Program-made: the position numbers and the translations under genes
Part shown: positions 12,377 to 36,525 of the stretch, piece by piece
Layout: each line of letters begins with the position of its first letter
How positions within the stretch are numbered: the stretch's first letter is position 1
From: Nemertoderma westbladi
Taxonomy: Eukaryota; Animalia; Xenacoelomorpha
Length of the DNA: 64,000 bases
Assembly: GCA_032718475.1 (NCBI GenBank)
Contig: JAUCBJ010004605.1
Location: 1-64,000, forward strand
Direction: 5' to 3'
Notes under the pieces: generated by a model
What the model saw: only the letters and a program-made list of their open reading frames with translations
What the model was told of the DNA's origin: nothing
The model's database searches: none

Positions 12377-13128
12377 CAGTGAGCTGCTCTATGGGGGCGG
12401 AAACAAATATGCTACTGATGGTGCAGTAGATCGACTCAACACCATTATAAACCGTCGGCGACTTCTCCAGAGAGAGTCCAACGCTACTGGGTGCTCTAAG
12501 AATCGTGTACAATATAAGGTGGAGACAGTCAATGTCTTTAAATCGAAGAGAAAACGATTCACGCCTTTGAAAAGGTCTGAAATAATTAACGATGTAGAAG
12601 AAGACGACACAGATAGAGAGACATTAACTTACGACATGGTAGACGCGCCGTTAGACCTGTCTATTAAAGCTAAACCGGCCAAACACAGAACCCAACTGCG
12701 GCCAATAGGCACCGGAAGTAAGTACACAAGGAAAACGAGACCAATCGGAACTTGGAATCCGATAACGCATGACGTCACAAACATCGGGGATTACGGAATG
12801 ATGGGAGTGACGTCAGAAGCGGATGGTGATGTCGGCACATCTGAGTACCAACTCGACGAACTTTCGGGGGTCCCTCTGGACGATTCTCCTACCGACGAAT
12901 ACAGTTCGGATGGCAGCGAATGGGACGAACCGGATTTGGCGCCGACCAACGTTCTCCTTCATCATATGACCAACAAAGCACCGCAGCCGCGCAGACCAGT
13001 CGCCTCCAAGGGGGATATCAGACGACGGGGATTCACAACAGACCGCGCAGTAGTAGCCAGCCAATCAGCGTCTTCTGTCGCCTATACGAGCTACACGCAG
13101 ACTCTTGATTGGTCAATGAATCCTTCAG
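12090..13128 (+). CDS. cas: castor exon 1 (first identified coding exon): EMTGSPT repeats, PLDLS motif, acidic region
   Basis: Long GC-richer ORF. Donor CAG|GTTGGT at 13129 is phase 1 and matches acceptor 14395. Start is either ATG 12090 or acceptor TGCAG|G at 12096. Confidence 0.7.
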
Positions 13129-16100
13129 GTTGGTGCGTGGAACTGTCATGTTATGTTGCCGATTGTGGGACAGTTGAGCACAGCTTAGCGAAATGGGTAT
13201 TGACATCCAGGTGAAAGAGGTACGGTAGCCCAAACCCTTTTTCGAGAGCAAACTTTCTTTTTCTAATTTGATGCAGCATATCAAATTAACATTTAGACAT
13301 GTCAAAATGTAATTGTCAAATTAATATTTTTAAGATGTCATAATGTCAAAATGTAAATTTGAAAATGATATTTTGACATGTCAAAATGACAATTTGAAAA
13401 ATACATTTTGACGTTGTAAATTTGAAATTGATATTTTGACATGTCATGTCTAAATGTGAATTTGGTATGCTGTATCAAATGATAAAAATAAAGTTTGCTC
13501 TCGAAAAAAGTACGGCCTCTTTTGGTCACCGTGAAGCGGAAACTACTGGTTGGAATTCTGGTGGCTGTAAACATTTCTGACCATTCCCGACATTGCTAAG
13601 CTGTATGCTCAATCAAAAATGATAACGATATATTGACGATAATATAACGGTATAATGATAATCCTATACAGTATCTCTATTGCATAGCTACTACACATAC
13701 ATGAATGAAATGTTCGTGAATGTTATTTATAAAATAAGCATCCAGCAAATAAGAATTCGTAAAATCTTTGAATGCTTCAGCTATTTTTCAACTAAATTCA
13801 GACATTAGTACATATGTGGAATCCTTACAACGAAAGCTTTTTAGTGATTATAGAAATAAGAGAGTGAATAGCGAAGAGTTTGATTTCGCAAAAGAAACCT
13901 TTTTAAAAGCTTAAAAAAATTTAGGCAAAATTTTAAAAATTTTTAGAAAACTTTGGGGGGGGGGGGTGTTGTGCGTGTCATCAGAAAATGACGCTATATT
14001 ACGGGTCATGGTGTAATACCAATTGTAATGATTAGAAAAGGAAGGGGATTCTTGCATTCAGGAAATCATGGGGGTTAAGTATGTGTGTATGTATGTCTGT
14101 CTGTCTACAATTCATGTAATCTAGAGTCCAGGCTGGCTTGTCACTCCAGGTAATAACAAACAGTTCCCTCCACTCTCAACCCAACCCCGTGTAGTTGACT
14201 ACTGGGGACTATAAGTAGTTAACTATAATTATTGGCTATTAAACTTGGTTGTCTCTAAAGTATCTGTTTTAGAGGATGTGTAGTGTGTACGTGTGTGCAG
14301 TAATGCTATTTTTGTTTGTCTATCGACGGCTTATTGTATAGAGTTCTGCCTGTTTTGGCTGTTTTAAGTTACCAAATTAATTTGCCTTCCATAGGACCCA
14401 CAAACACCAGCATAGAAGCTAATAGATGGCTGCCCGAAGAGCCATCAAATATAATTAGCCAATCAGCAGCTGGGAATACAACACTGGTAGAAGGAATGGC
14501 CAATCACCCGTACGGGAAATACCTTGCCAAGTATGGCACCAAGTTCCTGTGTGGAGTTCCTTTCTGTCAAACAAGTTTCAGAGAACACTTCCACTGCAAA
14601 TCCGCCGGATGTTACAATATGGTGAGTTGTGTGATAATGTTACAATATGGCGAGTTGTGTGATAATGTTACAATACAATATGGTAGGTTGTGTGATAATG
14701 TTACTGTTACAATATGGTAAGTTGTGTGATAATGTTACTGTTACTGTTACAATATGGTGAGTTGAGTGATCATGTTATAATATGGCGAGTTGTGTGATAA
14801 TGTTACAATATGGCGAGTTGTGTTATAATGTTACAATACAATATGGTAGGTTGTGTGATAATGTTACTGTTACAATATGGTGAGTTGTGTGATAATGTTA
14901 CAATATGGCGAGTTGTGTGATAATGTTACAATATGGCGAGTTGTGTGATAATGTTACAATACAATATGGTAAGTTGTGTGATAATATTACTGTTACAATA
15001 TGGTGAGTTGTGTGATAATGTTACAATATGGTGAGTTGTGTGATAATGTTACAATATGGCGAGTTGTGTGATAATGTTACAATATGGCGAGTTGTGTGAT
15101 AATGTTACAATACAATATGGTGAGTTGTGTGATAATGTTACAATATGGTGAGTTGTGTGATAATGTTACTGTTACAATATGGTGAGTTGTGTGATAATGT
15201 TACAATATGGCGAGTTGTGTGATAATGTTACAATACAATATGGTAAGTTGTGTGATAATGTTACTGTTACAATATGGTAAGTTGTGTGATAATGTTACTG
15301 TTACAATATGGTGAGTTGTGTGATAATGTTACTGTTACAATATGGTGTGTTGTGTGATAATGTTACAATATGGTGAGTTGTGTGATAATGTTACAATTGG
15401 TGAGTTGTGTGAGATAATATGTTACAATATGGTGAGTTGTGTGAGATAATAATGTTACAATATATGGTGAGTTGTGTGAGATAATATGTTACAATATGGT
15501 GAGTTGTGTGATAATGTTACAATATGGTGAGTTGTGTGAGATAATAATGTTACAATATGGTGAGTTGTGTGAGATAATATGTTACAATATGGTGAGTTGT
15601 GTGATAATGTTACAATATGGTGAGTTGTGTGAGATAATAATGTTACAATATATGGTGAGTTGTGTGAGATATAACGCTAGAAGTTTTATTTATTCAAAAC
15701 GCCAGCCTTTCTGGTTTAGCTGCTTCAAGAAGTCAGTCTGTTAATTTAATTAAAATTGAACCATATAACTTACTTACGCATAAGACTTAACTTTTCATAC
15801 TTATTTAATAAGCATATAGAGTCAGTGCTGTTATAAGTTAAACATGTGACTTGGAGGTACGTCACATAAGGAAAGGATAGCTAATTATCCGGATATCCGA
15901 TATGTTAATTAACCCACACGGTACATTTAGAAATTATCGCGAAAGGAAGATGTTATTCGCCATTTCAACTACCACAAGAAAAAAGACCAAAGCTTAGCCT
16001 ACGGGTTCATGAGATTCTGCCAGACGGAAAACTGCGACGCTTCGTACCCCGATTGTAAACTTAACAAACTTCATACTCACTACCACTGCTTGCAGGTAAA

Positions 16101-19100
16101 CAAAGCAATATTTAATAATTTATTGTTACGGTATTATTCTACACATGATAACGGCAATCATCGGGTTCCATCATACTTGAATTCGTATTTACTTTCAGTA
16201 TATATGAGATATCTATAGTTCTTTGTCAATTATTACTGATTTTTGTGAGGATCCTGGGGGAATAAAGAACATGATTGGGTGGATGGTTGGTTACGGATGT
16301 TGAACATTGGGAGTTAGTGTGGCACCCTCCCTGCCTTATAGGTAACAGCCAAGAGAACGCAGACAGGAACGCAGGTTGCCCCCAGTGTTTCCGGTTTCGC
16401 GGTCGTCCTACGATTGTACTGCATCTACTATGTATGCTAATTCCCTTGCAGAAAGGATGCCGCCGTGTGTACACCAGCACATCCGACGTTCTATCGCATA
16501 GAAACTTTCACGACAAATACTCGGCTTTGGTACACGATGGATTCCAACGGTACAGCGCGGCAGAAGATTGCGGGATATCGGTGTGTCCCTTCTACTGGGA
16601 CCGGACAACTCACTTCCACTGTCTGTAAGTGAATAACCAAATAACAACCAGCTTTCACTATCTGTATAACTAAGTAAGAACCTAATTCCATTGTCTGTAG
16701 CATAATATAACGCATAAGAAGGCTCTGTCTAATTGATATTTCCTAATTACAGGCGATCTGATTGTAACTTTGCGTTTAAACAGAAGTGCGACATAGAGAA
16801 ACACAAGGGTTACCACATCAGAGATTTCCAATATAGAGAACAAGGGTTCCGCAAATACAGCAAATATGAATTGTGTCCATTTAATGGTAATTTAAATATT
16901 AACTATTAACATATTGGGCCGGAGATATATAACAATCAGAAATTATTTATAAGTAACAAATTTTACTGTATAATTTAAAATACTAACTGTTTTAAATAAC
17001 ATAAAACAATTACATTCAAATAGGGTGTCAATTTAAGAACAGATACAATCACTTCCATTGCCTTATACCTGGGTGTGAGTTCAACTTTACGGCGGCCAAT
17101 CAGATAGCTGCACACAAACGCAAGCATGAACGACATGTACAACAAATCGCCGCGGAGAGACAAAAGAATGTGCGACCATATCTTAAAGATATTCACTTGG
17201 AAATTCCGCCGCCACATAATAATAATACACGGTCAGAAACCCAGGAAGAAAAAATAGTAAAATTAGAAGATTTTACTCCAAACACTAACACAGGTAGGTG
17301 TTAGGTTAGATTAAACGTTAGGTGTTATTATATTTACACCTATATCTTGTGTCTATAATCTAACTCTTATGTTATCACTAGACCTCCGGTCCTTGTCCGT
17401 CCATGTAACTATAATTATTACTATTTATTCCACAAAATTACGATTTATAGACGCCGTCTCTGGAATATAGATTGGCCTTTATTCCTACAAAGATGGGAGT
17501 GAAACAAAGGTACCTAAATATCGTGCGATTTTCTGTACTGGTACTGCTGTAAACATGCTAACCCTATCAAAACAGCAACACAATTCGTTAAATTTGGGCA
17601 GTACCTTTTATTTATAGGTACATATAGGTGGTACCTTTATAGGCAGCCGACTGTACCTGTACCTTTTAAGAATTTCAGCTAATAAGCAGATAAGTGATAT
17701 ATAAAGATTTATATTATTTTTCACTGCAATTTTATTTTAGCTAAGAAGACTTTTAATTAAGGGGGGCTTTGTTCATAATTTTAAAGCAGTTTTACCTTTT
17801 TTCTTTCAGTAATTTTAAAGTGTTGTTTAATCTGTGTTGTGATTATAATTAAGAATACCTTTTCCTCTTTACATTCCATTCAGTGTAAAAATTATTTTAA
17901 TAATGAAAACGTCTGCGACTTATGTAGTTAGCAGTTTCATATTTTGTTCATGTGAGACAAAAATACAAGCTAATAGCAATACTGCCTGGTGGTACAACAG
18001 CAGCACAGCATAACAAGCTCTGTCTACTTACACACATACAGTGAGAGTAGGCCTATGGAATATTCGGTTGCAATTCGATGTTGGGAAAAAAATTAAAAAG
18101 TAATTTGTGTTCGAGTTACGTTTTAAGTTAATTTAAATTAGTTTCTTTAAATTAGTATTACCGTAAATTAGTTTTCAATATATTATCATCACTGAACCTG
18201 TATTCTGTCGTATTATTTACATTATTTTGGAGGGATCCCTTTTGGATGTCCTTATTCCTCACACGTGTTTGTTTGTTTGTTTGTGGGTTTGTTTGTGTGT
18301 TTGTACACACAACTTCTTTCACCTAATGTTGATGGAATTGGATGAAACTCTGATGATAGGTTCATGTTGTGCTCAGCTTGTGTATGCAAGGTTTTGGTTG
18401 CTAGGGACCTGTTGGTTGCCTAGCAACAGTGAAATTAATTCTATAATGACTGATTATAATCGTATAATTCACTCAATCAAAATTCTGTCGACACCCCATA
18501 GGGAGTATCTATTGGACTTGCTTTCTGCAAAATTTCGCTTTATTTCGTTCAGAATTGTAGATACATTTCCTACTGACAGTGTTTTTTTTAACCTACAGTA
18601 CTTTACTACTATACAGTATATACATACTATTGCCCGATGTTTCGTTATTAGGCTGCCCTGCATAGACGCGTAATTTATTACAACAATATTGATAGCAATG
18701 GATCCGTCCATTATTGCCAGCTCTCGCTGGCAAGCTTGTAAAACTTGTTTATTACATTTTCACATTAGATACAACCACAAGAGACCACAAAGCGATAAAA
18801 CAAGAGCAACGCAAACCAACTTCGACCGAGGGATACCTAACACCTCCGAAACTATCTATTGACGAAAGGAATAGAGTCCCCAGGGATTGCGACAACACAC
18901 CCGATAATTACAAATTACCCGGTAATTACAAATTAGCCAATCAAATTCAACAGGTCTTAAATCCCATACTCCTCCACGCCAATGCTGATAGTCCCCATAA
19001 GTTAAAAGCAATAAATTCTGCGAGCCAAATCATAGGGCAGGATGGTTCTTTATCTAATGAGGCTAGGGGAATGTTACAACTTGCACAAAGTTTGGATATG

Positions 19101-22100
19101 AAGGTTAGCATTACATTATTTGATATTTTTAATCTAATTCTCAAGCTTCGAAAAGTAAAGAATGGCCGATGTAGGAACAAATTAAATGAAATATCGACGG
19201 GTCAGGTCAGACAAACATACAATTAGAGAGATACACCGTTAGCTTATCAACTCAACAAAACCTGTACATTTCCAATATATTTCAGGGAACCAATTTAGAT
19301 ATGGGAATGTCATTGAATCTCAGCTCAGGAACGATGGAGTCGGGGAGCCCCATCGATGCAACTATTACACAATATCAAGAATTGATCTGTTTTTGTGCAA
19401 ATAACCGCTTTTCATTCCACGACAATAAGTAAGTTGAATTAGTAAGATTAAGACTTGGGGTGGGGATGGAGGTGGGGGTGTGGGTTTGGGTGGGGGTGGG
19501 GGTGGTGGGGGTTCCGTTTCCCATAACCCTTCTGCTGAATGTTAGCTAAATAACTACCATTACCTCTATGGGGTATAGTTCCGGGGGGACCACATAGAAA
19601 AATAAGTCATCAGACTTTGTGCGTAAACCCAAACTGCTCGGCCGAAGTAAACGTTCCTTTTTACTCATTTGCTTTTTACCATGGATATATACTTTGCCCA
19701 AACATTGTCAATGTTTGTTACAGAAATCCCTGTTCGGCAAAAAAATGCAAATATTCCCGGAAACAAGAAGTCCATGTTCACTGCACCGAATATCTATGTC
19801 CATTCGCGTCCAAAGAAAGTAAAGAAATTGGAGAACATTACACGAAACATACACAGGTGAGTAGCGAACATTACACGAAACATACACAGGTGAGTGGAGA
19901 ACATTACACGAAACATACACAGGTGAGTGGAGAACATTACACGAAACATACACAGGTGAGTAGCGAACGAGTAGAGAACATTACACGAAACATACACAGG
20001 TGAGTAGCGAACGAGTGGAGAACATTACACGAAACATACACAGGTGAGTAGCGAACGAGTAAAGAGAACATTACACGAAACATACACAGGTGAGTAGAGA
20101 ACGAGTGGAGAACATTACACGAAACATACACAGGTGAGTGGAGAACATTACACGAAACATACACAGGTGAGTAGAGAACGAGTGGAGAACATTACACGAA
20201 ACATACACAGGTGAGTAGCGAACGAGTAAAGAGAACATTACACGAAACATACACAGGTGAGTAGAGAACGAGTGGAGAACATTACACGAAACATACACAG
20301 GTGAGTGGAGAACATTACACGAAACATACACAGGTGAGTAGCGAACGAGTGGAGAACATTACACGAAACATACACAGGTGAGTAGCGAACGAGTGGAGAA
20401 CATTACACGAAACATACACAGGTGAGTAGCGAACGAGTGGAGAACATTACACGAAACATACACAGGTGAGTAGCGAACGAGTAGAGAACATTACACGAAA
20501 CATACACAGGTGAGTAGCGAACGAGTAAAGAGAACATTACACGAAACATACACAGGTGAGTAGCGAACGAGTGGAGAACATTACACGAAACATACACAGG
20601 TGAGTAGCGAACGAGTGGAGAACATTACACGAAACATACACAGGTGAGTAGAGAACGAGTAAAGAGAACATTACACGAAACATACACAGGTGAGTGGAGA
20701 ACATTACACGAAACATACACAGGTGAGTAGCGAACGAGTGGAGAACATTACACGAAACATACACAGGTGAGTAGCGAACGAGTGGAGAACATTACACGAA
20801 ACATACACAGGTGAGTAGAGAACATTACACGAAACATACACAGGTGAGTAGAGAACATTACACGAAACATACACAGGTGAGTAGAGAACATTACACGAAA
20901 CATACACAGGTGAGTAGAGAACATTACACGAAACATACACAGGTGAGTAGAGAACATTACACGAAACATACACAGGTGAGTAGCGAACGAGTGGAGAACA
21001 TTACACGAAACATACACAGGTGAGTAGCGAACGAGTGGAGAACATTACACGAAACATACACAGGTGAGTAGAGAACATTACACGAAACATACACAGGTGA
21101 GTAGCGAACGAGTGGAGAACATTACACGAAACATACACAGGTGAGTAGAGAACATTACACGAAACATACACAGGTGAGTAGAGAACGTTACACGAAACAT
21201 ACACAGGTGAGTGGAGAACGAGTGGAGAACATTACACGAAACATACACAGGTGAGTAGAGAACATTACACGAAACATACACAGGTGAGTAGCGAACGAGT
21301 GGAGAACATTACACGAAACATACACAGGTGAGTAGCGAACATTACACGAAACATACACAGGTGAGTGGAGAACGAGTGGAGAACATTACACGAAACATAC
21401 ACAGGTGAGTAGAGAACATTACACGAAACATACACAGGTGAGTAGCGAACGAGTGGAGAACATTACACGAAACATACACAGGTGAGTAGCGAACGAGTGG
21501 AGAACATTACACGAAACATACACAGGTGAGTAGCGAACGAGTGGAGAACATTACACGAAACATACACAGGTGAGTAGAGAACATTACACGAAACATACAC
21601 AGGTGAGTGGAGAACATTACACGAAACATACACAGGTGAGTAGCGAACGAGTGGAGAACATTACACGAAACATACACAGGTGAGTAGAGAACATTACACG
21701 AAACATACACAGGTGAGTGGAGAACATTACACGAAACATACACAGGTGAGTGGAGAACGAGTGGAGAACATTACACGAAACATACACAGGTGAGTAGCGA
21801 ACGAGTGGAGAACATTACACGAAACATACACAGGTGAGTAGCGAACGAGTGGAGAACATTACACGAAACATACACAGGTGAGTAGAGAACATTACACGAA
21901 ACATACACAGGTGAGTGGAGAACATTACACGAAACATACACAGGTGAGTAGCGAACGAGTGGAGAACATTACACGAAACATACACAGGTGAGTAGAGAAC
22001 ATTACACGAAACATACACAGGTGAGTGGAGAACATTACACGAAACATACACAGGTGAGTGGAGAACATTACACGAAACATACACAGGTGAGTAGCGAACG

Positions 22101-25100
22101 AGTGGAGAACATTACACGAAACATACACAGGTGAGTAGCGAACGAGTAGAGAACATTACACGAAACATACACAGGTGAGTAGCGAACATTACACGAAACA
22201 TACACAGGTGAGTAGAGAACATTACACGAAACATACACAGGTGAGTGGAGAACATTACACGAAACATACACAGGTGAGTAGCGAACGAGTGGAGAACATT
22301 ACACGAAACATACACAGGTGAGTAGCGAACGAGTGGAGAACATTACACGAAACATACACAGGTGAGTAGCGAACGAGTGGAGAACATTACACGAAACATA
22401 CACAGGTGAGTAGAGAACATTACACGAAACATACACAGGTGAGTGGAGAACATTACACGAAACATACACAGGTGAGTAGCGAACGAGTGGAGAACATTAC
22501 ACGAAACATACACAGGTGAGTAGAGAACATTACACGAAACATACACAGGTGAGTGGAGAACATTACACGAAACATACACAGGTGAGTGGAGAACATTACA
22601 CGAAACATACACAGGTGAGTAGCGAACGAGTGGAGAACATTACACGAAACATACACAGGTGAGTAGCGAACGAGTAGAGAACATTACACGAAACATACAC
22701 AGGTGAGTAGCGAACATTACACGAAACATACACAGGTGAGTAGAGAACATTACACGAAACATACACAGGTGAGTAGCGAACATTACACGAAACATACACA
22801 GGTGAGTAGAGAACATTACACGAAACATACACAGGTGAGTGGAGAACATTACACGAAACATACACAGGTGAGTAGAGAACATTACACGAAACATACACAG
22901 GTGAGTAGCGAACATTACACGAAACATACACAGGTGAGTAGAGAACATTACACGAAACATACACAGGTGAGTGGAGAACATTACACGAAACATACACAGG
23001 TGAGTGGAGAACATTACACGAAACATACACAGGTGAGTAGAGAACATTACACGAAACATACACAGGTGAGTGGAGAACATTACACGAAACATACACAGGT
23101 GAGTAGCGAACGAGTGGAGAACATTACACGAAACATACACAGGTGAGTAGCGAACATTACACGAAACATACACAGGTGAGTAGAGAACATTACACGAAAC
23201 ATACACAGGTGAGTGGAGAACATTACACGAAACATACACAGGTGAGTAGAGAACATTACACGAAACATACACAGGTGAGTGGAGAACATTACACGAAACA
23301 TACACAGGTGAGTGGAGAACATTACACGAAACATACACAGGTGAGTGGAGAACATTACACGAAACATACACAGGTGAGTGGAGAACATTACACGAAACAT
23401 ACACAGGTGAGTAGCGAACGAGTGGAGAACATTACACGAAACATACACAGGTGAGTAGCGAACATTACACGAAACATACACAGGTGAGTGGAGAACATTA
23501 CACGAAACATACACAGGTGAGTGGAGAACATTACACGAAACATACACAGGTGAGTAGAGAACATTACACGAAACATACACAGGTGAGTGGAGAACATTAC
23601 ACGAAACATACACAGGTGAGTAGCGAACGAGTGGAGAACATTACACGAAACATACACAGGTGAGTAGCGAACATTACACGAAACATACACAGGTGAGTAG
23701 AGAACATTACACGAAACATACACAGGTGAGTGGAGAACATTACACGAAACATACACAGGTGAGTAGAGAACATTACACGAAACATACACAGGTGAGTGGA
23801 GAACATTACACGAAACATACACAGGTGAGTGGAGAACATTACACGAAACATACACAGGTGAGTGGAGAACATTACACGAAACATACACAGGTGAGTGGAG
23901 AACATTACACGAAACATACACAGGTGAGTAGCGAACGAGTGGAGAACATTACACGAAACATACACAGGTGAGTAGCGAACATTACACGAAACATACACAG
24001 GTGAGTGGAGAACATTACACGAAACATACACAGGTGAGTGGAGAACATTACACGAAACATACACAGGTGAGTAGAGAACATTACACGAAACATACACAGG
24101 TGAGTGGAGAACATTACACGAAACATACACAGGTGAGTAGCGAACGAGTGGAGAACATTACACGAAACATACACAGGTGAGTAGCGAACATTACACGAAA
24201 CATACACAGGTGAGTAGAGAACATTACACGAAACATACACAGGTGAGTGGAGAACATTACACGAAACATACACAGGTGAGTAGAGAACATTACACGAAAC
24301 ATACACAGGTGAGTGGAGAACATTACACGAAACATACACAGGTGAGTGGAGAACATTACACGAAACATACACAGGTGAGTGGAGAACATTACACGAAACA
24401 TACACAGGTGAGTGGAGAACATTACACGAAACATACACAGGTGAGTAGCGAACGAGTGGAGAACATTACACGAAACATACACAGGTGAGTAGCGAACATT
24501 ACACGAAACATACACAGGTGAGTGGAGAACATTACACGAAACATACACAGGTGAGTGGAGAACATTACACGAAACATACACAGGTGAGTGGAGAACATTA
24601 CACGAAACATACACAGGTGAGTGGAGAACATTACACGAAACATACACAGGTGAGTAGCGAACGAGTGGAGAACATTACACGAAACATACACAGGTGAGTA
24701 GCGAACATTACACGAAACATACACAGGTGAGTGGAGAACATTACACGAAACATACACAGGTGAGTGGAGAACATTACACGAAACATACACAGGTGAGTGG
24801 AGAACATTACACGAAACATACACAGGTGAGTAGCGAACGAGTGGAGAACATTACACGAAACATACACAGGTGAGTAGCGAACGAGTAAAGAGAACATTAC
24901 ACGAAACATACACAGGTGAGTGGAGAACATTACACGAAACATACACAGGTGAGTAGCGAACGAGTGGAGAACATTACACGAAACATACACAGGTGAGTAG
25001 CGAACGAGTGGAGAACATTACACGAAACATACACAGGTGAGTAGCGAACGAGTAAGAGAACATTACACGAAACATACACAGGTGAGTGGAGAACATTACA

Positions 25101-28100
25101 CGAAACATACACAGGTGAGTAGCGAACGAGTGGAGAACATTACACGAAACATACACAGGTGAGTAGCGAACGAGTGGAGAACATTACACGAAACATACAC
25201 AGGTGAGTAGCGAACGAGTGGAGAACATTACACGAAACATACACAGGTGAGTAGAGAACATTACACGAAACATACACAGGTGAGTGGAGAACATTACACG
25301 AAACATACACAGGTGAGTAGCGAACATTACACGAAACATACACAGGTGAGTAGCGAACATTACACGAAACATACACAGGTGAGTAGCGAACGAGTGGAGA
25401 ACATTACACGAAACATACACAGGTGAGTGGAGAACATTACACGAAACATACACAGGTGAGTAGCGAACGAGTGGAGAACATTACACGAAACATACACAGG
25501 TGAGTAGCGAACGAGTGGAGAACATTACACGAAACATACACAGGTGAGTAGCGAACGAGTGGAGAACATTACACGAAACATACACAGGTGAGTAGAGAAC
25601 ATTACACGAAACATACACAGGTGAGTGGAGAACATTACACGAAACATACACAGGTGAGTGGAGAACATTACACGAAACATACACAGGTGAGTAGCGAACA
25701 TTACACGAAACATACACAGGTGGGTGGAGAACATTACACGAAACATACACAGGTGAGTAGCGAACGAGTGGAGAACATTACACGAAACATACACAGGTGA
25801 GTAGAGAACATTACACGAAACATACACAGGTGAGTGGAGAACATTACACGAAACATACACAGGTGAGTAGCGAACGAGTGGAGAACATTACACGAAACAT
25901 ACACAGGTGAGTAGCGAACGAGTGGAGAACATTACACGAAACATACACAGGTGAGTAGCGAACGAGTGGAGAACATTACACGAAACATACACAGGTGAGT
26001 AGAGAACATTACACGAAACATACACAGGTGAGTAGCGAACATTACACGAAACATACACAGGTGAGTAGCGAACATTACACGAAACATACACAGGTGAGTA
26101 GCGAACGAGTGGAGAACATTACACGAAACATACACAGGTGAGTAGCGAACGAGTGGAGAACATTACACGAAACATACACAGGTGAGTAGCGAACGAGTAG
26201 AGAACATTACACGAAACATACACAGGTGAGTGGAGAACATTACACGAAACATACACAGGTGAGTAGCGAACGAGTGGAGAACATTACACGAAACATACAC
26301 AGGTGAGTAGCGAACGAGTGGAGAACATTACACGAAACATACACAGGTGAGTAGCGAACGAGTAGAGAACATTACACGAAACATACACAGGTGAGTGGAG
26401 AACATTACACGAAACATACACAGGTGAGTAGCGAACGAGTGGAGAACATTACACGAAACATACACAGGTGAGTAGCGAACGAGTGGAGAACATTACACGA
26501 AACATACACAGGTGAGTAGCGAACGAGTGGAGAACATTACACGAAACATACACAGGTGAGTAGAGAACATTACACGAAACATACACAGGTGAGTAGCGAA
26601 CATTACACGAAACATACACAGGTGAGTAGCGAACATTACACGAAACATACACAGGTGAGTAGCGAACGAGTGGAGAACATTACACGAAACATACACAGGT
26701 GAGTAGCGAACGAGTGGAGAACATTACACGAAACATACACAGGTGAGTAGCGAACGAGTAGAGAACATTACACGAAACATACACAGGTGAGTGGAGAACA
26801 TTACACGAAACATACACAGGTGAGTAGCGAACGAGTGGAGAACATTACACGAAACATACACAGGTGAGTAGCGAACGAGTGGAGAACATTACACGAAACA
26901 TACACAGGTGAGTAGCGAACGAGTAGAGAACATTACACGAAACATACACAGGTGAGTGGAGAACATTACACGAAACATACACAGGTGAGTAGCGAACGAG
27001 TGGAGAACATTACACGAAACATACACAGGTGAGTAGCGAACGAGTGGAGAACATTACACGAAACATACACAGGTGAGTAGCGAACGAGTGGAGAACATTA
27101 CACGAAACATACACAGGTGAGTAGAGAACATTACACGAAACATACACAGGTGAGTGGAGAACATTACACGAAACATACACAGGTGAGTAGCGAACATTAC
27201 ACGAAACATACACAGGTGAGTAGCGAACATTACACGAAACATACACAGGTGAGTAGCGAACGAGTGGAGAACATTACACGAAACATACACAGGTGAGTAG
27301 AGAACATTACACGAAACATACACAGGTGAGTAGCGAACATTACACGAAACATACACAGGTGAGTAGCGAACATTACACGAAACATACACAGGTGAGTAGC
27401 GAACGAGTGGAGAACATTACACGAAACATACACAGGTGAGTAGCGAACATTACACGAAACATACACAGGTGAGTAGCGAACGAGTGGAGAACATTACACG
27501 AAACATACACAGGTGAGTAGCGAACGTGTGGAGAACATTACACGAAACATACACAGGTGAGTAGCGAACATTACACGAAACATACACAGGTGAGTAGAGA
27601 ACATTACACGAAACATACACAGGTGAGTGGAGAACATTACACGAAACATACACAGGTGAGTGGAGAACATTACACGAAACATACACAGGTGAGTAGCGAA
27701 CGTGTGGAGAACATTACACGAAACATACACAGGTGAGTAGCGAACATTACACGAAACATACACAGGTGAGTAGAGAACATTACACGAAACATACACAGGT
27801 GAGTGGAGAACATTACACGAAACATACACAGGTGAGTGGAGAACATTACACGAAACATACACAGGTGAGTAGCGAACATTACACGAAACATACACAGGTG
27901 GGTGGAGAACATTACACGAAACATACACAGGTGAGTAGCGAACGAGTGGAGAACATTACACGAAACATACACAGGTGAGTAGAGAACATTACACGAAACA
28001 TACACAGGTGAGTGGAGAACATTACACGAAACATACACAGGTGAGTAGCGAACATTACACGAAACATACACAGGTGAGTAGCGAACATTACACGAAACAT

Positions 28101-31100
28101 ACACAGGTGAGTAGCGAACGAGTGGAGAACATTACACGAAACATACACAGGTGAGTAGAGAACATTACACGAAACATACACAGGTGAGTAGCGAACATTA
28201 CACGAAACATACACAGGTGAGTAGCGAACATTACACGAAACATACACAGGTGAGTAGCGAACGAGTGGAGAACATTACACGAAACATACACAGGTGAGTA
28301 GCGAACATTACACGAAACATACACAGGTGAGTAGCGAACGAGTGGAGAACATTACACGAAACATACACAGGTGAGTAGCGAACGTGTGGAGAACATTACA
28401 CGAAACATACACAGGTGAGTAGCGAACATTACACGAAACATACACAGGTGAGTAGAGAACATTACACGAAACATACACAGGTGAGTGGAGAACATTACAC
28501 GAAACATACACAGGTGAGTGGAGAACATTACACGAAACATACACAGGTGAGTAGCGAACATTACACGAAACATACACAGGTGGGTGGAGAACATTACACG
28601 AAACATACACAGGTGAGTAGCGAACGAGTGGAGAACATTACACGAAACATACACAGGTGAGTAGCGAACGAGTGGAGAACATTACACGAAACATACACAG
28701 GTGAGTAGAGAACATTACACGAAACATACACAGGTGAGTAGCGAACATTACACGAAACATACACAGGTGAGTAGCGAACGAGTGGAGAACATTACACGAA
28801 ACATACACAGGTGAGTAGAGAACATTACACGAAACATACACAGGTGAGTAGAGAACATTACACGAAACATACACAGGTGAGTAGAGAACATTACACGAAA
28901 CATACACAGGTGAGTAGAGAACATTACACGAAACATACACAGGTGAGTAGAGAACATTACACGAAACATACACAGGTGAGTAGAGAACATTACACGAAAC
29001 ATACACAGGTGAGTAGCGAACATTACACGAAACATACACAGGTGAGTAGAGAACATTACACGAAACATACACAGGTGAGTAGAGAACATTACACGAAACA
29101 TACACAGGTGAGTAGCGAACATTACACGAAACATACACAGGTGAGTAGAGAACATTACACGAAACATACACAGGTGAGTAGCGAACGAGTGGAGAACATT
29201 ACACGAAACATACACAGGTGAGTAGAGAACATTACACGAAACATACACAGGTGAGTAGAGAACATTACACGAAACATACACAGGTGAGTAGCGAACATTA
29301 CACGAAACATACACAGGTGAGTAGAGAACATTACACGAAACATACACAGGTGAGTAGAGAACATTACACGAAACATACACAGGTGAGTAGCGAACATTAC
29401 ACGAAACATACACAGGTGAGTAGAGAACATTACACGAAACATACACAGGTGAGTAGCGAACGAGTGGAGAACATTACACGAAACATACACAGGTGAGTAG
29501 AGAACATTACACGAAACATACACAGGTGAGTAGCGAACATTACACGAAACATACACAGGTGAGTAGCGAACGAGTGGAGAACATTACACGAAACATACAC
29601 AGGTGAGTAGAGAACATTACACGAAACATACACAGGTGAGTAGAGAACATTACACGAAACATACACAGGTGAGTGGAGAACATTACACGAAACATACACA
29701 GGTGAGTAGAGAACATTACACGAAACATACACAGGTGAGTAGCGAACATTACACGAAACATACACAGGTGAGTGGAGAACATTACACGAAACATACACAG
29801 GTGAGTGGAGAACATTACACGAAACATACACAGGTGAGTAGCGAACATTACACGAAACATACACAGGTGAGTAGCGAACATTACACGAAACATACACAGG
29901 TGAGTAGCGAACATTACACGAAACATACACAGGTGAGTAGAGAACATTACACGAAACATACACAGGTGAGTAGAGAACATTACACGAAACATACACAGGT
30001 GAGTGGAGAACATTACACGAAACATACACAGGTGAGTGGAGAACATTACACGAAACATACACAGGTGAGTAGAGAACATTACACGAAACATACACAGGTG
30101 AGTAGCGAACGAGTGGAGAACATTACACGAAACATACACAGGTGAGTAGAGAACATTACACGAAACATACACAGGTGAGTAGCGAACGAGTGGAGAACAT
30201 TACACGAAACATACACAGGTGAGTAGCGAACGAGTGGAGAACATTACACGAAACATACACAGGTGAGTAGAGAACGAGTAGAGAACATTACACGAAACAT
30301 ACACAGGTGAGTAGAGAACGAGTAGAGAACATTACACGAAACATACACAGGTGAGTAGCGAACATTACACGAAACATACACAGGTGAGTAGCGAACATTA
30401 CACGAAACATACACAGGTGAGTAGAGAACATTACACGAAACATACACAGGTGAGTGGAGAACATTACACGAAACATACACAGGTGAGTAGAGAACATTAC
30501 ACGAAACATACACAGGTGAGTAGCGAACGAGTGGAGAACATTACACGAAACATACACAGGTGAGTAGAGAACATTACACGAAACATACACAGGTGAGTAG
30601 CGAACGAGTGGAGAACATTACACGAAACATACACAGGTGAGTAGCGAACGAGTGGAGAACATTACACGAAACATACACAGGTGAGTAGAGAACGAGTAGA
30701 GAACATTACACGAAACATACACAGGTGAGTAGAGAACGAGTAGAGAACATTACACGAAACATACACAGGTGAGTAGCGAACATTACACGAAACATACACA
30801 GGTGAGTAGCGAACATTACACGAAACATACACAGGTGAGTAGAGAACATTACACGAAACATACACAGGTGAGTGGAGAACATTACACGAAACATACACAG
30901 GTGAGTAGAGAACATTACACGAAACATACACAGGTGAGTAGAGAACATTACACGAAACATACACAGGTGAGTAGAGAACATTACACGAAACATACACAGG
31001 TGAGTAGAGAACATTACACGAAACATACACAGGTGAGTAGAGAACATTACACGAAACATACACAGGTGAGTAGAGAACATTACACGAAACATACACAGGT

Positions 31101-31988
31101 GAGTAGAGAACATTACACGAAACATACACAGGTGAGTAGAGAACATTACACGAAACATACACAGGTGAGTAGAGAACATTACACGAAACATACACAGGTG
31201 AGTAGCGAACGAGTAAAGATATAAAATTTATCATACAGTACATCAGCAAACAGTTCATACGAATACAGTCTTACCTTAAGTAAATAATATATTATTTAAA
31301 ACAACAATGATACACACTTCAGGCTCTTCGGTTGTGAACCTTATAAGATTGTCGCTTGAATTTTTTTCACCAGGGCCAAATGGACGACCAGGGGTTTGGC
31401 AACGGTTGGCAATGCATCAAGGGTATTCGCATCTGTTCTTACAAGAATTGCTCGGTAACAATGAAACGACATTACCATTGTACGAAGCAAGGCTGTTATT
31501 ACACTACTGTTAATCTCAGAATGTTTCCTGCGCACGTAAGGCGTCATCTTTCAAGCGAGATACGGTGAGTAAGATTCCTCTCGCTCTCAATATAATTGAA
31601 CTCCAGAACCAAATAGAACTACATAAAATCACAGACAATGTCAAATTTGTGTGTCTTTAAAAAAAATTAATCTTTTGTCCGCAGTTGTTTGTCCGGGTTT
31701 GAGCATTTCCCGAAGAAAGTTGATTGTCAACGCCAGGGATGTATTTACAACAGAATCTCGGCTCATTACCATTGCACAAGAAGTGATTGCAAATTCTCAT
31801 TTCAATTCTATGGGCAGATGGATACCCACAGGTAAACAATAAACTCTTAATACTGGTTGATTATTTCAGTGACGTTTGTTTATGTTGTGGGGCGAGCCAC
31901 GAAGTTGGCGGAGCCTTAGCGAATTGACACTGTTAGGGGGTGGGTCAATTTATGCAAATAGTTGTCGTCGTCGTCGTCGTCGTCGTTG

Positions 31989-32020
<32 letters not shown>

Positions 32021-35000
32021 GTCGTTACGATTTTGACATGCTAATAACTTTGTCGGATTTAAAGCTGCCAAGTTGAAAATTTGTAGGTATCAATATGAGC
32101 AAAAGTTGAGATTTTTGAGAGACTTTCAGACACCATCAGTGCAATGGTCTCCCGCTAGAGGGCCACATGTCTAAACATTAAATGCCCTCCCATTTCTTTG
32201 CTTTTAATCCGTTTAAGCTGAAACTTGGCAGATATGTATTAGACCATTAGCTGTGACTTTCAAAGGAGGCGAATCCATCTGCAGTTCTCCAGTCTGCCGC
32301 TAGAGGGCCAAAGGTCTGAAAGTGAAATCGTTGTCGTCGTTACGATTTTGACATGCTAATAACTTTGTCGGATTTAAAGCTGCCAAGTTGAAAATTTGTA
32401 GGTATCAATATGAGCAAAAGTTGAGATTTTTGAGAGACTTTCAGACACCATCAGTGCAATGGTCTCCCGCTAGAGGGCCACATGTCTAAACATTAAATGG
32501 CCACCCATTTCTTTGCTTTTAATCCGTTTAAGCTGAAACTTGGGAAGTATGTACTAGACCATTAGCTGTAAATTTCAAAGGAGGCTAATCTGTCTGCAGT
32601 TCTCCAGTCTGCCGCTAGAGGGCGAAATGTCCCGAATGTGAAATTATTCTTCCATTTAGTTGTTTATGATGTGATTACGCTGAAACTTGTCATATATGTA
32701 CTAGATGACATCCTGAGTCTTTGTGTGGATTGTAATCGGTCCGAAGTTTTCCAGTCTGCCGGTAGAGGGCCACATGTCTAAACATTAAATGGCCACCCAT
32801 TTCTTTGCTTTTAATCCGTTTAAGCTGAAACTTGGGAAGTATGTACTAGACCATTAGCTGTAAATTTCAAAGGAGGCTAATCTGTCTGCAGCTCTCCAGT
32901 CTGCCGCTAGAGGGCGAAATGTCCCGAATGTGAAATTATTCTTCCATTTAGTTGTTTATGATCTGATTACGCTGAAACTTGTCATATATGTACTAGATGA
33001 CATCCTGAGTCTTTGTGTGGATTGTAATCGGTCCGAAGTTTTCCAGTCTGCCGGTAGAGGGCCACATGTCTAAACATTAAATGGCCACCCATTTCTTTGC
33101 TTTTAATCCGTTTAAGCTGAAACTTGGGAAGTATGTACTAGACCATTAGCTGTAAATTTCAAAGGAGGCTAATCTGTCTGCAGTTCTCCAGTCTGCCGCT
33201 AGAGGGCAAAATGTCCCGAAAGTGAAATTAATCTCCCATTTAGTTATTTATGATCTGATCAAGCTGAAACTTGTCATATATGTACTACTGTAGAAGACAT
33301 CCTAAGTCTTTGTGTGGACAGTAATCGGTCCGGAGTTTTCGAGTCTGCCGCTAGAGGGCGAAATGTAGGAAAGGAATAACCTTCGCGAATTCCTTGATCT
33401 TAATCTATTTAAGCTGAATTTTGGAATATACAGTACCGGTATGTACTAGACCACATGCCTCGTCTTTGTGAGGAAGGTGATCGATCCGTAGTTCTTTAAT
33501 ATGCCGCTAGAGGGCTAAATGTATGAAAGTGAAAACCTTCCAACATTTCGTTATTTATGATCCGTCAATCGGAAACTTGGTAGATATGTAATAGACCATA
33601 GGCTGTGGCTTTGTAGGGAAACTAATCCTTCCTTCTTCAGTTACCCAGTCTCCCGCTAGAGGGTTAACGTTTTCCGGGAAAATCTTCTCCTATGTTTTTA
33701 TAATCCTTTCGAGTTGATACTTAGCATTAACTCATTTCACGTGCTGCGCGAAGGCCCCACTTCGTGTATTATAATACATACTTTTTTACTTACAGAACTG
33801 TAAATAAAATCCATTAAATATAATCGTCGATGTTCGTATTATTTTGGTTTCAGATTGTCCCACGTTGTCTGAGATTGAGACTTTTGGGGGGCGAGCCAAA
33901 TTTATGATTTACTATATGATTGATTGACTTTTTTTCAGCCGAAAGCACGCAAGAAAGTCGACTAGTAGTGCCCAAAGGGAAGGAGATGCTACCTCGAGTA
34001 ATGCAACTATTAGTGGAGGATTTATTGAGAACTTGGGGGATCCAGAAACAGATGCAATAGACCTGAGCGAAGAAGGACCGACAACCGGCAGTCTGCCAGC
34101 GGCAGAGTCTAGAGTGTCAATCGCGGAATCAGTCCCAATGAACAATACGTTTAACGAACCGGGAAGCGAATCGACACTGTTTCCTTTCAGTTGGACGATA
34201 CCAGGTGTGATTCCGCCGGCGGGAGAGCAACCTCTACCGAGTGTAGTGCAGTTGGCTACTCTGGGAGTCCCGGATCATGGACGCAGTGTGGGAGCAGATG
34301 TCGCGCGCAGTGTGGGAGCAGATATCGGACGCAGTGTGGGAGGAGATATCGGACGCAGTGTGGGAAGAGATATCGGACGCAGTGTGGGAGGAGATATCGG
34401 ACGAGGAGATATCGGACGCAGTGTGGGAGGAGATATCGGACGAGGAGATATCGGACGAGGAGATATCGGACGCAGTGTGGGAGGAGATATCGGACGAGGA
34501 GATATCGGACGCAGTGTGGGAGGAGATATCGGACGCAGTGTGGGAGGAGATATCGGACGCAGTGTGGGAAGAGATATCGGACGCAGTGTGGGAGGAGATA
34601 TCGGACGCAGTGTGGGAGGAGATATCGGACGCAGTGTGGGAGGAGATATCGGACGAGGAGATATCGGACGCAGTGTGGGAGGAGATATCGGACGAGGAGA
34701 TATCGGACGCAGTGTGGGAGGAGATATCGGACGCAGTGTGGGAGGAGATATCGGACGAGGAGATATCGGACGCAGTGTGGGAGGAGATATCGGACGCAGT
34801 GTGGGAGGAGATATCGGACGCAGTGTGGGAGGAGATATCGGACGCAGTGTGGGAGGAGATATCGGACGAGGAGATATCGGACGCAGTGTGGGAGGAGATA
34901 TCGGACGCAGTGTGGGAGGAGATATCGGACGAGGAGATATCGGACGCAGTGTGGGAGGAGATATCGGACGCAGTGTGGGAGGAGATATCGGACGAGGAGA

Positions 35001-36525
35001 TATCGGACGCAGTGTGGGAGGAGATATCGGACGCAGTGTGGGAGGTGATATCGGACGAGGAGATATCGGACGAGGAGATATCGGACGAGGAGATATCGGA
35101 CGCAGTGTGGGAGGAGATATCGGACGCAGTGTGGGAGGTGATATCGGACGAGGAGATATCGGACGAGGAGATATCGGACGAGGAGATATCGGACGCAGTG
35201 TGGGAGGAGATATCGGACGAGGAGATATCGGACGCAGTGTGGGAGGAGATATCGGACGCAGTGTGGGAGCAGATTTACCCGGATGTAGTGTGAAGACACC
35301 AAACACAGGAATTATGTTGAGTGGCACCGGCTTCAGTTACAATAACAGCCAATACGTAACTGGAATTAGTAATCTTTCTTCGAAAATTGAAAATGCCGGT
35401 CATCCTTTACGAAAATCAGTCACACAAGTTTATCATTCTAACCTATCTGTCAATCATAACAATCTACCGACCAACCTATCTGTAAAACCAAGCAACTTTC
35501 CGACCAACCTATTTGTCAAACCTAGCAATTTTCCGACCAACCTATCTGTAAAACCTAACAGTCTCCCGACCAACCTAACTATCAAAGACAATCTTCCGAC
35601 CAACCTATCTGTAAAACCTAACAATCTCCCGACCAACCTAACTATCAAAGACAATCTACCGACCAACCTAACTATCAAAGACAATCTCCCGACCAACCTA
35701 ACTGTCGAACCTAGCAATCTACCGACCAACCTAACTGTCGAACCTAGCAATCTACCGACCAACCTAACTATCAAAGACAATCTCCCGACCAACCTAACTA
35801 TCAAAGACAATCTACCGACCAACCTAACTATCAAAGACAATCTACCGACCACCCTAACTATCAAAGACAATCTACCGACCACCCTAACTATCAAAGACAA
35901 TTTACCGACCAACCTAACTGTCAAACCTAGCAATCTACCGACCAACCTAACTTTGTTCAAACCGAACAATCTAATGACGTCAATATCATCATATACATTA
36001 AATAACAATAACAATTGGGACTTTTCATTGGCAAATAATACAGAGAGTGATAAAAGACCACTGGACAAGGAGGAGGTTCCTCTAGATCTTACAGAAGTTT
36101 GTCAAACGAAACCGATAAAACGCCTCAAGATTCAAAACGATATGGGAATCGCTAAAGTTGCTCATAAAAGGGAAGATATTGTCGGGTCAAGTGATCACAA
36201 AACGGGAAATTTAACTTTCAAGCAAAGGGAAGACCTGCATAATTACGAGAAACGATTCTTTTACTTCCTTCAATACGTCAAAGACAAAGCGTTGGAGGCG
36301 GCAGTTAGAGGCATAAGTAGTGACAGTAAAATCACCAGCAAAGCAGATAAATTGATAGCAGATGGTGTCCCTAATGGTTCCCAGTCTACTACTGATGGCA
36401 CAGGACTGACAGGTACTCAACAACTAACAAACTCTCGCGAGAAATCGCAACGATTAGTTGAGACTGGGGATAACAACGATCCTTGTAAATCATCGACCGA
36501 CTCTGGCAGTAATACAAGATATTAA
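12090..36525 (+). CDS. cas: Castor / CASZ1-family zinc-finger transcription factor, 12 coding exons, about 1,847 aa (whole-gene span)
   Basis: Joined exons: 12090-13128, 14395-14621, 15931-16095, 16452-16624, 16753-16886, 17024-17293, 18769-19103, 19286-19428, 19724-19856, 31374-31564, 31685-31831, 33939-36525. All introns are GT-AG with matching phases; total 5,544 nt. Peptides [58 protein letters not shown] and HKRKHER match the CASZ1/castor Cys2-His2-Cys2-His2 repeat as I recall it. The 5' end is uncertain. Confidence 0.9.
13237..13510. mobile_element. MITE / foldback element with about 65-bp imperfect terminal inverted repeats (castor intron 1)
   Basis: Left end CTTTTTCGAGAGCAAACTTT...CATTTAGACATG; right end CATGTCTAAATG...AAAGTTTGCTCTCGAAAAAAG. 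Internal TTTTGACATGTCAAAA palindrome. No clear TSD identified. Confidence 0.75.
14395..14621 (+). CDS. cas: castor exon 2 (start of finger 1: CGVPFC...HFHCKSAGC)
   Basis: CCTTCCATAG|GA acceptor; ATG|GTGAGT donor, phase 0. Confidence 0.9.
14610..15671 (+). repeat. Intronic minisatellite, 28-bp unit GTTACAATATG|GTGAGTTGTGTGATAAT (28-40 bp variants): amplified exon-2 end plus donor
   Basis: The first unit overlaps the real exon/intron junction at 14621/14622. Confidence 0.95.
15931..16095 (+). CDS. cas: castor exon 3
   Basis: TTTAG|AAA ... CAG|GTAAAC; [29 protein letters not shown]...HTHYHCLQ. Confidence 0.93.
16452..16624 (+). CDS. cas: castor exon 4
   Basis: CCCTTGCAG|AAA ... CT|GTAAGT; [20 protein letters not shown]...TTHFHC. 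Confidence 0.94.
16753..16886 (+). CDS. cas: castor exon 5
   Basis: TTACAG|G ... G|GTAATT; [21 protein letters not shown]...[14 protein letters not shown]. Not in the ORF track. Confidence 0.93.
17024..17293 (+). CDS. cas: castor exon 6
   Basis: AAATAG|GG ... CAG|GTAGGT; [37 protein letters not shown]. Not in the ORF track. Confidence 0.92.
18227..18430. mobile_element. Possible short non-autonomous element remnant with a (GTTT)n microsatellite and GTTGCTAGG...CCTAGCAAC hairpin
   Basis: Short stem, microsatellite and hairpin layout resembling HINE/DINE-type elements. Boundaries uncertain. Confidence 0.35.
18769..19103 (+). CDS. cas: castor exon 7 (linker)
   Basis: CATTAG|AT ... AAG|GTTAGC; open frame, phases match both neighbours. 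Confidence 0.8.
19286..19428 (+). CDS. cas: castor exon 8 (linker)
   Basis: TTTCAG|GGA ... AA|GTAAGT; open frame, phase 0 to phase 2. Confidence 0.8.
19724..19856 (+). CDS. cas: castor exon 9 (finger 5: CSAKKC...HVHCTEYLC...HYTKH)
   Basis: TGTTACAG|A acceptor. First CAG|GTGAGT donor at 19857; further in-frame donors at 19890, 19923 and 19956. Confidence 0.88.
19830..31219 (+). repeat. 11.4-kb intronic satellite of 33-bp and 44-bp units (GAACATTACACGAAACATACACAG|GTGAGTRG...): amplified exon-9 end plus donor
   Basis: Directly visible; the first unit is the real exon end. It fills about 99% of intron 9 (19857-31373). Roughly 300 units estimated from length, not counted. Confidence 0.98.
31374..31564 (+). 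CDS. cas: castor exon 10 (finger 6)
   Basis: TTTTTTTCACCAG|GGC ... CG|GTGAGT; CSYKNC...HYHCTKQGC...HVRRH. Confidence 0.9.
31685..31831 (+). CDS. cas: castor exon 11 (finger 7)
   Basis: TTTTGTCCGCAG|T ... AG|GTAAAC; [16 protein letters not shown]...[13 protein letters not shown]...DTH. Correct frame is not in the ORF track. Confidence 0.9.
31876..33787 (+). mobile_element. Non-autonomous HINE/Helentron-like element with a (GTC)n microsatellite and a central array of about 146-bp repeats
   Basis: 5' GTGGGGC...CACGAAG versus 3' GCCCCAC-TTCGTG short inverted repeats; (GTC)n at 31961-32024; 11 diverged units; 3' palindrome GTATTATAATAC followed by a T run. Family assignment is inferred from architecture. 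Confidence 0.6.
33939..36525 (+). CDS. cas: castor terminal exon 12 (completes finger 7; long repeat-rich tail; PLDLT motif)
   Basis: TTTTTTTCAG|C completes H-S-R-K-H and is in frame with ORF 34033-36525; stop TAA. Confidence 0.82.
34279..35274 (+). repeat. Coding tandem repeat, 24-bp (RSVGGDIG) and 15-bp (RGDIG) units
   Basis: Both unit lengths are multiples of 3; frame preserved. Confidence 0.95.
35455..35950 (+). repeat. Coding tandem repeat, 30/33-bp units ([10 protein letters not shown] / [11 protein letters not shown])
   Basis: Visible in DNA and protein. Confidence 0.93.

What the first reader, a model, noticed from the sequence alone, without database searches (positions are those of the whole stretch)
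19830..31219. An intron made of about 300 tandem copies of its own 5' splice site
Seen: the unit is the last ~24-27 nt of castor exon 9 plus CAG|GTGAGT, and the array fills about 99% of intron 9. Variation is almost confined to the bases after GTGAGT (AGAG/GGAG/AGCG, with or without 11 bp); the exonic part and donor are nearly invariant, apart from a few GTGGGT units. Only the first four donors (19857, 19890, 19923, 19956) keep frame. The fifth (20000) is out of frame, and all later ones include TGA at 20001. Established: CAG|GTGAGT is a near-optimal U1 site, and identical competing donors normally cause alternative splicing. Inference: either this organism enforces first-donor choice very strictly (co-transcriptional commitment or exon-size limits), or the array acts as a length-tunable splicing/NMD rheostat or U1 sink on a neural-fate transcription factor.
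Basis: partly seen in the sequence, partly recalled or inferred. Interest (0 to 1): 0.82.

Follow-up and report, generated by a model that had tools for sequence, protein, structure and literature searches.

The report
Giant splice-donor minisatellite in castor intron
In an animal's castor-like gene, the end of one exon and its splice signal are repeated 309 times in a row through the next intron; this is a very large case of a repeat type already known from human and lancelet genes, and it is likely tolerated because splicing would use the first signal.

Summary
Intron 9 (11,517 nt) of a castor-like gene is 98.6% array, with 309 donors; only donors 1-4 keep the 1,797-aa frame. DNA contigs from two studies show both edges and high-copy units, so it is not an artefact. 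The variation after the donor is breakpoint scatter, not a sign of selection: 290 of 308 units are simply the old intron's start joined to the exon's end. A second donor array in intron 2 is decaying. The type is known: lancelet 'mirages' and human F7, CBS, 6-16 and ABCA7 donor repeats, where the first donor dominates; an ABCA7 allele reaches 9.7 kb. No RNA run was listed, so donor use is untested here. This scan has already noted many such arrays on other DNA, in this genome (housekeeping genes included) and in at least 20 genomes (unchecked notes). Verdict: new, large member of a known kind, likely tolerated; a length effect on castor output is possible but unshown. Interest 0.2.

The parts
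12090..36525 (+). castor-like (CASZ1-like) zinc-finger gene, 12 predicted coding exons, 1,797 aa; start codon and exon 1 are the least certain parts
   Evidence: Open frame with GT-AG introns; exon 3 hits named castor homologues; core 47-56% identical to the 11 named homologues, no gaps against most deuterostome ones
19724..19856 (+). Exon 9 (133 nt); encodes most of one castor-type zinc finger and ends two codons after its last histidine
19857..19862 (+). Donor 1, the inferred authentic 5' splice site (CAG/GTGAGT, 8 of 9 matches to the recalled U1 consensus)
   Evidence: best-scoring of donors 1-4 against 21 of 29 homologue hits
19831..31210 (+). Minisatellite, 309 donors, units of 33-46 nt made of 24-28 nt of exon end plus 6-22 nt of intron start
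   Evidence: edges and high-copy unit words in DNA contigs of two studies
19890..19961 (+). Donors 2-4, in frame; each would add 11 residues that repeat the last zinc-finger helix
20000..20005 (+). Donor 5 (frameshift) and the TGA at 20001-20003 that every later donor would include
31198..31373 (+). 176 nt from the last donor to the acceptor: the inferred pre-expansion intron 9, whose first 22 nt supply the variable part of the units
31374..31564 (+). Exon 10 (191 nt), next zinc finger
14609..15667 (+). Second, more diverged donor-spanning minisatellite in intron 2 of the same gene (33-34 donor-like copies, units 27-40 nt, starting in the last 12-13 nt of exon 2); missed by the finding as given
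   Evidence: of 33 copies 18 GTGAGT, 8 GCGAGT, 4 GTAAGT, 2 GTAGGT, 1 GTGTGT; only the first keeps the frame

Best explanation
This is a minisatellite whose unit spans the exon 9-intron 9 border, likely born by a short tandem duplication across the donor and amplified by slippage and unequal exchange, and likely tolerated because splicing would commit to the first donor and remove all later copies with the intron. Shown: the unit anatomy; that nearly all units are the start of the old 176-nt intron joined to the end of the exon at breakpoints with 0-4 nt of shared sequence; block duplications of up to 32 units; presence in two samples. Inferred: origin at microhomology, amplification mechanism, first-donor use through exon definition of a 133-nt exon and 5'-to-3' commitment, some leak to in-frame donors 2-4, and nonsense-mediated decay of transcripts from donor 5 onward (stops 253-378 nt before the last junction).
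For: 290 of 308 units are a pure intron-prefix plus exon-suffix; at positions +7 to +9 the intron form (144), exon form (78) and intron-then-exon hybrid (86) occur, the reciprocal hybrid 0 times. The 30-nt core is 99.96% identical, and the longest repeated block is 32 units against at most 11 in 200 shuffles: recent homogenisation. Donor 1 fits homologues best in 21 of 29 hits. Removing the array leaves a 176-nt intron, like the gene's short introns of 120, 128 and 137 nt. The gene and window are full of unrelated minisatellites (13 arrays, 29.5% of the window, three in coding sequence). The intron 2 array has lost the GT in 8 of 33 copies. Precedents: F7, LMNB2 and PDGF use only the first donor, 6-16 and CBS the first three (PMC1557585); mirages leave splicing intact (PMC3087553).
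Against: Donor use was not observed at this locus. In the F7 work the only pseudo-sites that did compete were CAG/GTGAGT, taking about 70-90% of splicing from a weaker upstream site; here all 306 have that sequence, and the all-identical perfect case was not in the parts I read. In ABCA7, length does change expression and skipping. Donor 1 was not the single best in 8 of 29 hits, including lancelet P0002, and many alignments were to other fingers of the protein. Two of five non-coding arrays in this gene start at a donor, where chance gives about 0.01-0.03 (post hoc, small), so tolerance alone may not explain where arrays arise.
Confidence: 0.72

Rival explanations
1. Length-dependent dampener: the array arose by chance but its hundreds of U1 sites divert or delay splicing, so longer alleles give more downstream-donor use or exon 10 skipping, both leading to premature stops and less castor protein (ABCA7-like; passive or selected).
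For: All donors match the U1 consensus at 8 of 9 positions. Donor 5 onward and exon 10 skipping give stops 129-378 nt before the last junction. Unit-word depth differs about three-fold between runs X1 and X2. Human ABCA7: 25-bp unit starting at the donor, alleles to 9,711 bp, 33% lower expression and 3.2-fold more exon skipping at long alleles, second donor used at a low level (PMC5954066).
Against: No sign of selection on the donors. In F7, repeat number did not alter donor choice; in ABCA7, use of the second donor did not depend on length. Unchecked notes place such arrays in housekeeping genes of this genome and report first-donor use there. The depth difference may be library bias: X3, from the same sample as X2, gives inconsistent depths.
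Confidence: 0.15
2. Junction-targeted birth: splice junctions are mutational hotspots for tandem duplication in this animal (for instance through transcription- or splicing-linked DNA damage), so the array is neutral but its position is not random.
For: 2 of 11 donors in this gene begin an array; 2 of 5 non-coding arrays start within 30 nt of a donor (p about 0.013; 0.035 counting all 8 arrays). Scan notes report many donor and acceptor arrays in this genome (65 and 45 of 78 notes fit the two look-ups; word matches, unchecked).
Against: The test is post hoc on one gene chosen for its array; the notes are an interest-selected sample; the other 11 of 13 arrays checked in the window show no donor-spanning unit in a known gene. 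No genome was held for a fair count.
Confidence: 0.2
3. Recursive-splicing ladder: each CAG/GT is a zero-length ratchet point, and the intron is removed in steps.
For: Every unit has AG directly before GT.
Against: The array has 0 pyrimidine runs of 6 or more, 0 pyrimidine-tract-plus-AG motifs and 0 branch-point-like YTRAY motifs; the AG is simply the exon end.
Confidence: 0.02
4. Assembly artefact: a short duplication inflated by the assembler.
For: No listed contig spans the array; depth suggests fewer copies than assembled (0.67-0.84 of the count in X1, 0.21-0.36 in X2).
Against: Unit words are 19 to 194 times deeper than unique flanks in X1 and X2, in proportions that match the assembly across four word classes in X1; unique contigs stop at the left edge (19858) in 3 of 3 runs that cover it and start at the right edge; copy-to-copy junction contigs exist. 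The unit order has non-random block structure.
Confidence: 0.02

Closest known systems
Lancelet 'mirage' minisatellites (Adh3, globins BflGb6 and BflGb9, troponin C, PGBD5); PMC3087553 abstract and section 16 read, PMC3902484 passages read
   Same: Tandem repeats whose unit spans an exon-intron border and carries the splice signal; several per gene; length instability and homogenisation; host gene intact.
   Different: 309 copies against 2-7 in the globin and PGBD5 cases read; the host is not a close relative of Branchiostoma (castor core 54.5% identical, no closer than hemichordate at 56%); splicing not checked here.
Human F7 intron 7 37-bp VNTR, and the 6-16, CBS, LMNB2 and PDGF cases it cites; PMC1557585 parts 1, 3, 4 of 6 read
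   Same: First monomer spans the exon-intron border, so identical donors follow the true one; first (or first three) donors used.
   Different: 5-26 copies there against 309; F7 donor is weak (consensus value 74) whereas these are the sequence that paper scores 100; unit here is mostly exon (24-28 nt) rather than 4 nt.
Human ABCA7 intron 18 VNTR; PMC5954066 passages and section 20 read
   Same: Donor-bearing unit repeated from the exon border; alleles up to 9,711 bp (about 390 units by my division), so comparable in size; second donor gives a frameshift that is subject to decay.
   Different: ABCA7 unit starts at the GT and is C-rich, with no copied exon end described in the passages read; a length effect is measured there and untested here.

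Membership tests
Mirage / donor-spanning minisatellite | Head-to-tail unit that spans an exon-intron border of the host gene | tested here: met
   24-28 nt of exon 9 plus 6-22 nt of intron
Mirage / donor-spanning minisatellite | Copies carry the splice signal | tested here: met
   306 GTGAGT and 3 GTGGGT of 309
Mirage / donor-spanning minisatellite | Minisatellite unit size (10-160 bp in the lancelet cases) with homogenisation within the cluster | tested here: met
   33-46 nt; core 99.96% identical; 32-unit block duplication (sizes from PMC3087553)
Mirage / donor-spanning minisatellite | Host reading frame intact when the exon-adjacent copy is used | tested here: met
   1,797-aa frame; donor 1 best in 21 of 29 hits
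Mirage / donor-spanning minisatellite | Length instability between alleles or individuals | tested here: inconclusive
   Depth ratio 0.67-0.84 (X1) versus 0.21-0.36 (X2) of the assembly count; library bias not excluded
Mirage / donor-spanning minisatellite | Regular splicing of the mRNA is kept | not testable with these tools
   No RNA holder listed
Splicing-modulating VNTR (ABCA7 type) | Array length correlates with splicing or expression | not testable with these tools
   Needs genotyped individuals with RNA
Splicing-modulating VNTR (ABCA7 type) | Donor copies kept by selection (needed only for the adaptive version) | tested here: inconclusive
   Only three point-mutation events, one in the donor, one in the exon part, one in the spacer: no depletion, little power
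Recursive (ratchet) splice sites | Pyrimidine tract and branch point before the AG/GT | tested here: not met
   0 tracts, 0 YTRAY motifs in 11.4 kb
castor / CASZ1 zinc-finger family (host gene) | Repeated castor-type Cys/His fingers with homology to named castor proteins | tested here: met
   8 of the 10 clusters looked up carry names, castor in 7 (one search shows castor for scorpion, lancelet, crinoid, starfish, hemichordate, brachiopod, frog; the moth is named only as a C2H2 protein); six motif matches in the model. Pfam gave no significant hit for single exons; no tree was built

The most novel reading that the evidence does not exclude
This animal seeds minisatellites preferentially at its splice junctions and expands them to hundreds of perfect-consensus decoy donors, and the castor array varies about three-fold between individuals and tunes castor dose through downstream-donor use or exon 10 skipping and decay: a natural allelic series for how exon definition copes with 100-300 equal 5' splice sites.
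Probability: 0.12. Interest if true: 0.6.

Novelty: new member of a known kind. Interest (0 to 1): 0.2.

Why it matters
On its own it matters little: the repeat type, first-donor use and even a 10-kb donor repeat are in print. Its value is as test material. All decoys have the one donor sequence that did compete in the F7 experiments, so counting donor use here would test first-come donor choice at an extreme. The unit anatomy also gives an unusually clear record of how such an array starts (old intron start joined to exon end at microhomology). If a genome-wide count showed arrays arise at junctions more than chance allows, that would point to a mutational link between splicing and repeat birth, which the lancelet paper leaves open.

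Tried and rejected
No whole genome is held, so no genome-wide count of junction arrays was possible. One search for sequencing runs listed 6 runs, no RNA holder listed; this says nothing about expression. Run X5 gave next to no cover of the gene. X3 depth was too uneven (unique flanks 5-95) to use. For the depth ratios I used 8 exact high-depth contigs of the 18 shown (15 more were not shown); I left out the three unique flank contigs as numerators, rows with other letters, one low-depth row and one partly laid row. Pfam found nothing significant for seven single exons. A first exon model with an extra candidate exon at 17451-17509 broke the frame and was dropped. The idea that the first three units are 33 nt to keep nearby donors in frame is not supported: chance 0.29, or 0.07 using the local unit mix. 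Recursive splicing and poison exons inside the array were rejected for lack of acceptor signals; no AATAAA or ATTAAA in the array. Paper searches that gave nothing useful: UPF3A donor VNTR (0 papers; a recalled lead, unconfirmed, also not's listing), genome-wide junction minisatellites in invertebrates (listings only), duplicated identical donors (0 papers). PMC10078293 passages show repeat-linked splicing is common in humans but gave no donor-spanning case. Supplements of the papers were not opened; those of PMC3087553 and PMC5954066 may bear on unit sequences.
Full report
Observation. The array is as described. Tandem Repeats Finder reports 19831-31210, period 33, 309 copies. Parsing finds 309 donors (306 GTGAGT, 3 GTGGGT) and 308 units of 14 types, 33-46 nt; the 24 exonic nt are identical in 308 of 309 copies. 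A 12-exon model from 12090 to 36525 gives one frame of 1,797 aa. Exon 3 finds 195 proteins at E up to 0.001; of 10 clusters looked up, 7 are named castor homologues, and the zinc-finger core is 47-56% identical to the named ones, highest for hemichordate, echinoderm, lancelet and frog. The animal is thus unplaced and not close to Branchiostoma. Intron 9 is 11,517 nt, 98.6% array. Donors 1-4 give a full frame, donor 5 shifts it, and all later donors include TGA at 20001-20003. The model rests on DNA and homology, not on RNA.

Is it real? Three DNA runs from two studies hold the locus. In all three, the unique left contig ends at 19858 and a unique right contig starts at 31185-31213. Unit words are far deeper than the flanks: 0.67-0.84 of the assembly's count in X1 over four word classes, 0.21-0.36 in X2 over three (8 of 18 shown contigs used). 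X1 shows no difference from the window in its long unique pieces and may be the source sample, so it is not independent; X2 and X3 differ at 15763 and 15776 and so come from another individual. The tool warns that depth is no copy number, and X3 is inconsistent with X2, so the three-fold gap is a hint of length variation only. No listed contig spans the array.

How the units were made. It follows from the anatomy. Take the sequence after the last donor (the inferred old intron start) and the sequence before the first donor (the exon end): 290 of 308 units are a prefix of the first joined to a suffix of the second, at breakpoints sharing 0-4 nt. At +7 to +9 the intron form occurs 144 times, the exon form 78, the intron-then-exon hybrid 86 and the reciprocal hybrid never. 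True point mutations come to three events: one in the donor (3 copies), one in the exon part (1 copy), one in the spacer (3 copies). The 30-nt core is 99.96% identical, and a block of 32 units is repeated, against at most 11 in 200 shuffles: a young or recently homogenised array. Without it, intron 9 is 176 nt, in the range of the gene's short introns. There is no evidence of selection to keep donors, though three events give little power.

Surroundings. The same gene has a second donor-spanning array in intron 2 (14609-15667; 33-34 copies), more diverged, with 8 of 33 copies changed to GC and only the first copy in frame. It also has three coding minisatellites, and 13 arrays make up 29.5% of the window. 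Two of five non-coding arrays in the gene start at a donor, p about 0.013-0.035 by a rough post hoc count. The scan's unchecked notes report many more: 65 of 78 notes on this genome fit a donor-array word look-up and 45 an acceptor-array one, including PRPF8, GALNS, aconitase and CUL3, several with first-donor use in RNA; 82 notes in at least 20 genomes hold the mirage words. I did not test these loci. They gave me the term 'mirage' and the two lancelet papers, which I then read.

Mechanism. Most likely the spliceosome defines the 133-nt exon 9 and commits to donor 1 before later copies compete (inferred). Donor 1 fits homologues best in 21 of 29 hits; in 8 it ties or loses, and many alignments are to other fingers. 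Leak to donors 2-4 would add 11-33 residues after the finger's last histidine; donor 5 onward or exon 10 skipping would place stops 129-378 nt before the last junction, predicted decay substrates (the 50-nt rule is recalled). The array has no pyrimidine tract, branch-like motif or poly(A) hexamer, so no internal exons or ratchet points are expected. Donor use could not be checked: the one run search listed no RNA holder.

Comparison with what is known. Borensztajn et al. (PMC1557585; parts 1, 3, 4 of 6 read) describe the F7 37-bp VNTR, where only the most upstream of identical donors is used whatever the repeat number, and cite LMNB2 and PDGF (first donor only) and 6-16 and CBS (first three). 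Against my reading, pseudo-sites changed to CAG/GTGAGT took 70-90% of splicing from the weaker true site, and that is the sequence of every copy here. Ebner et al. (PMC3087553; abstract and section 16) and Pavelitz-type PGBD5 work (PMC3902484; passages) describe lancelet mirages: unstable, homogenised, not disturbing splicing, origin unclear. De Roeck et al. (PMC5954066; passages and section 20) describe the ABCA7 VNTR, whose unit starts at the donor, reaches 9,711 bp, and whose length lowers expression by up to 33% and raises skipping of the next exon 3.2-fold, while use of the second donor does not vary with length. So the type, the size and even the rheostat idea have precedents. Searches for a published genome-wide excess of junction minisatellites found none in this library (listings only, and the library lacks most subscription papers).

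Verdict. A real, very large, new member of a known kind, likely tolerated (0.72). A passive length effect on castor output (0.15) and junction-biased birth of arrays (0.2, compatible with tolerance) stay open. Interest 0.2; the boldest reading has probability 0.12 and would merit 0.6.

Noticed in passing
window:14609-15667: Second donor-spanning minisatellite, in intron 2 of the same gene; the copy nearest the true donor has GC in place of GT and the unit is out of frame.
   Followed up: yes
window:12083-12375, 34279-35274, 35458-35952: Three in-frame coding minisatellites in the predicted castor protein (7-residue, 5/8-residue and 10-11-residue repeats), about 600 residues in all.
   Followed up: partly
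window:5811-7035: Two abutting arrays (14-nt and 12-nt units) end exactly at a donor-like G/GTGAGT at 7027-7033; possibly an upstream untranslated exon made of repeats. No exon model here.
   Followed up: no
window:43838-52101 (minus): Pao/BEL-type LTR retrotransposon: long open frames with DUF1759, Peptidase_A17, integrase zinc-binding and DUF5641 hits, in three successive frames.
   Followed up: partly
window:60506-64000 (minus): LINE-type element with PHD finger, endonuclease and reverse transcriptase hits in one 1,165-aa frame.
   Followed up: partly
window:39094-40947 (minus): 618-aa open frame with Cys/His clusters near its end and no Pfam hit; probably part of a mobile element, not identified.
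   Followed up: partly
window:31964-33366: A (GTC)n run followed by 145/292/315-nt tandem repeats in intron 11, starting about 130 nt after the donor, so not donor-spanning.
   Followed up: no
window:16307-16356, 18220-18780, 19480-19760: Short dispersed high-copy repeats inside castor introns (depth hundreds of times the flanks in X1-X3); a 12-nt insertion behind 19228 in one X3 contig.
   Followed up: no
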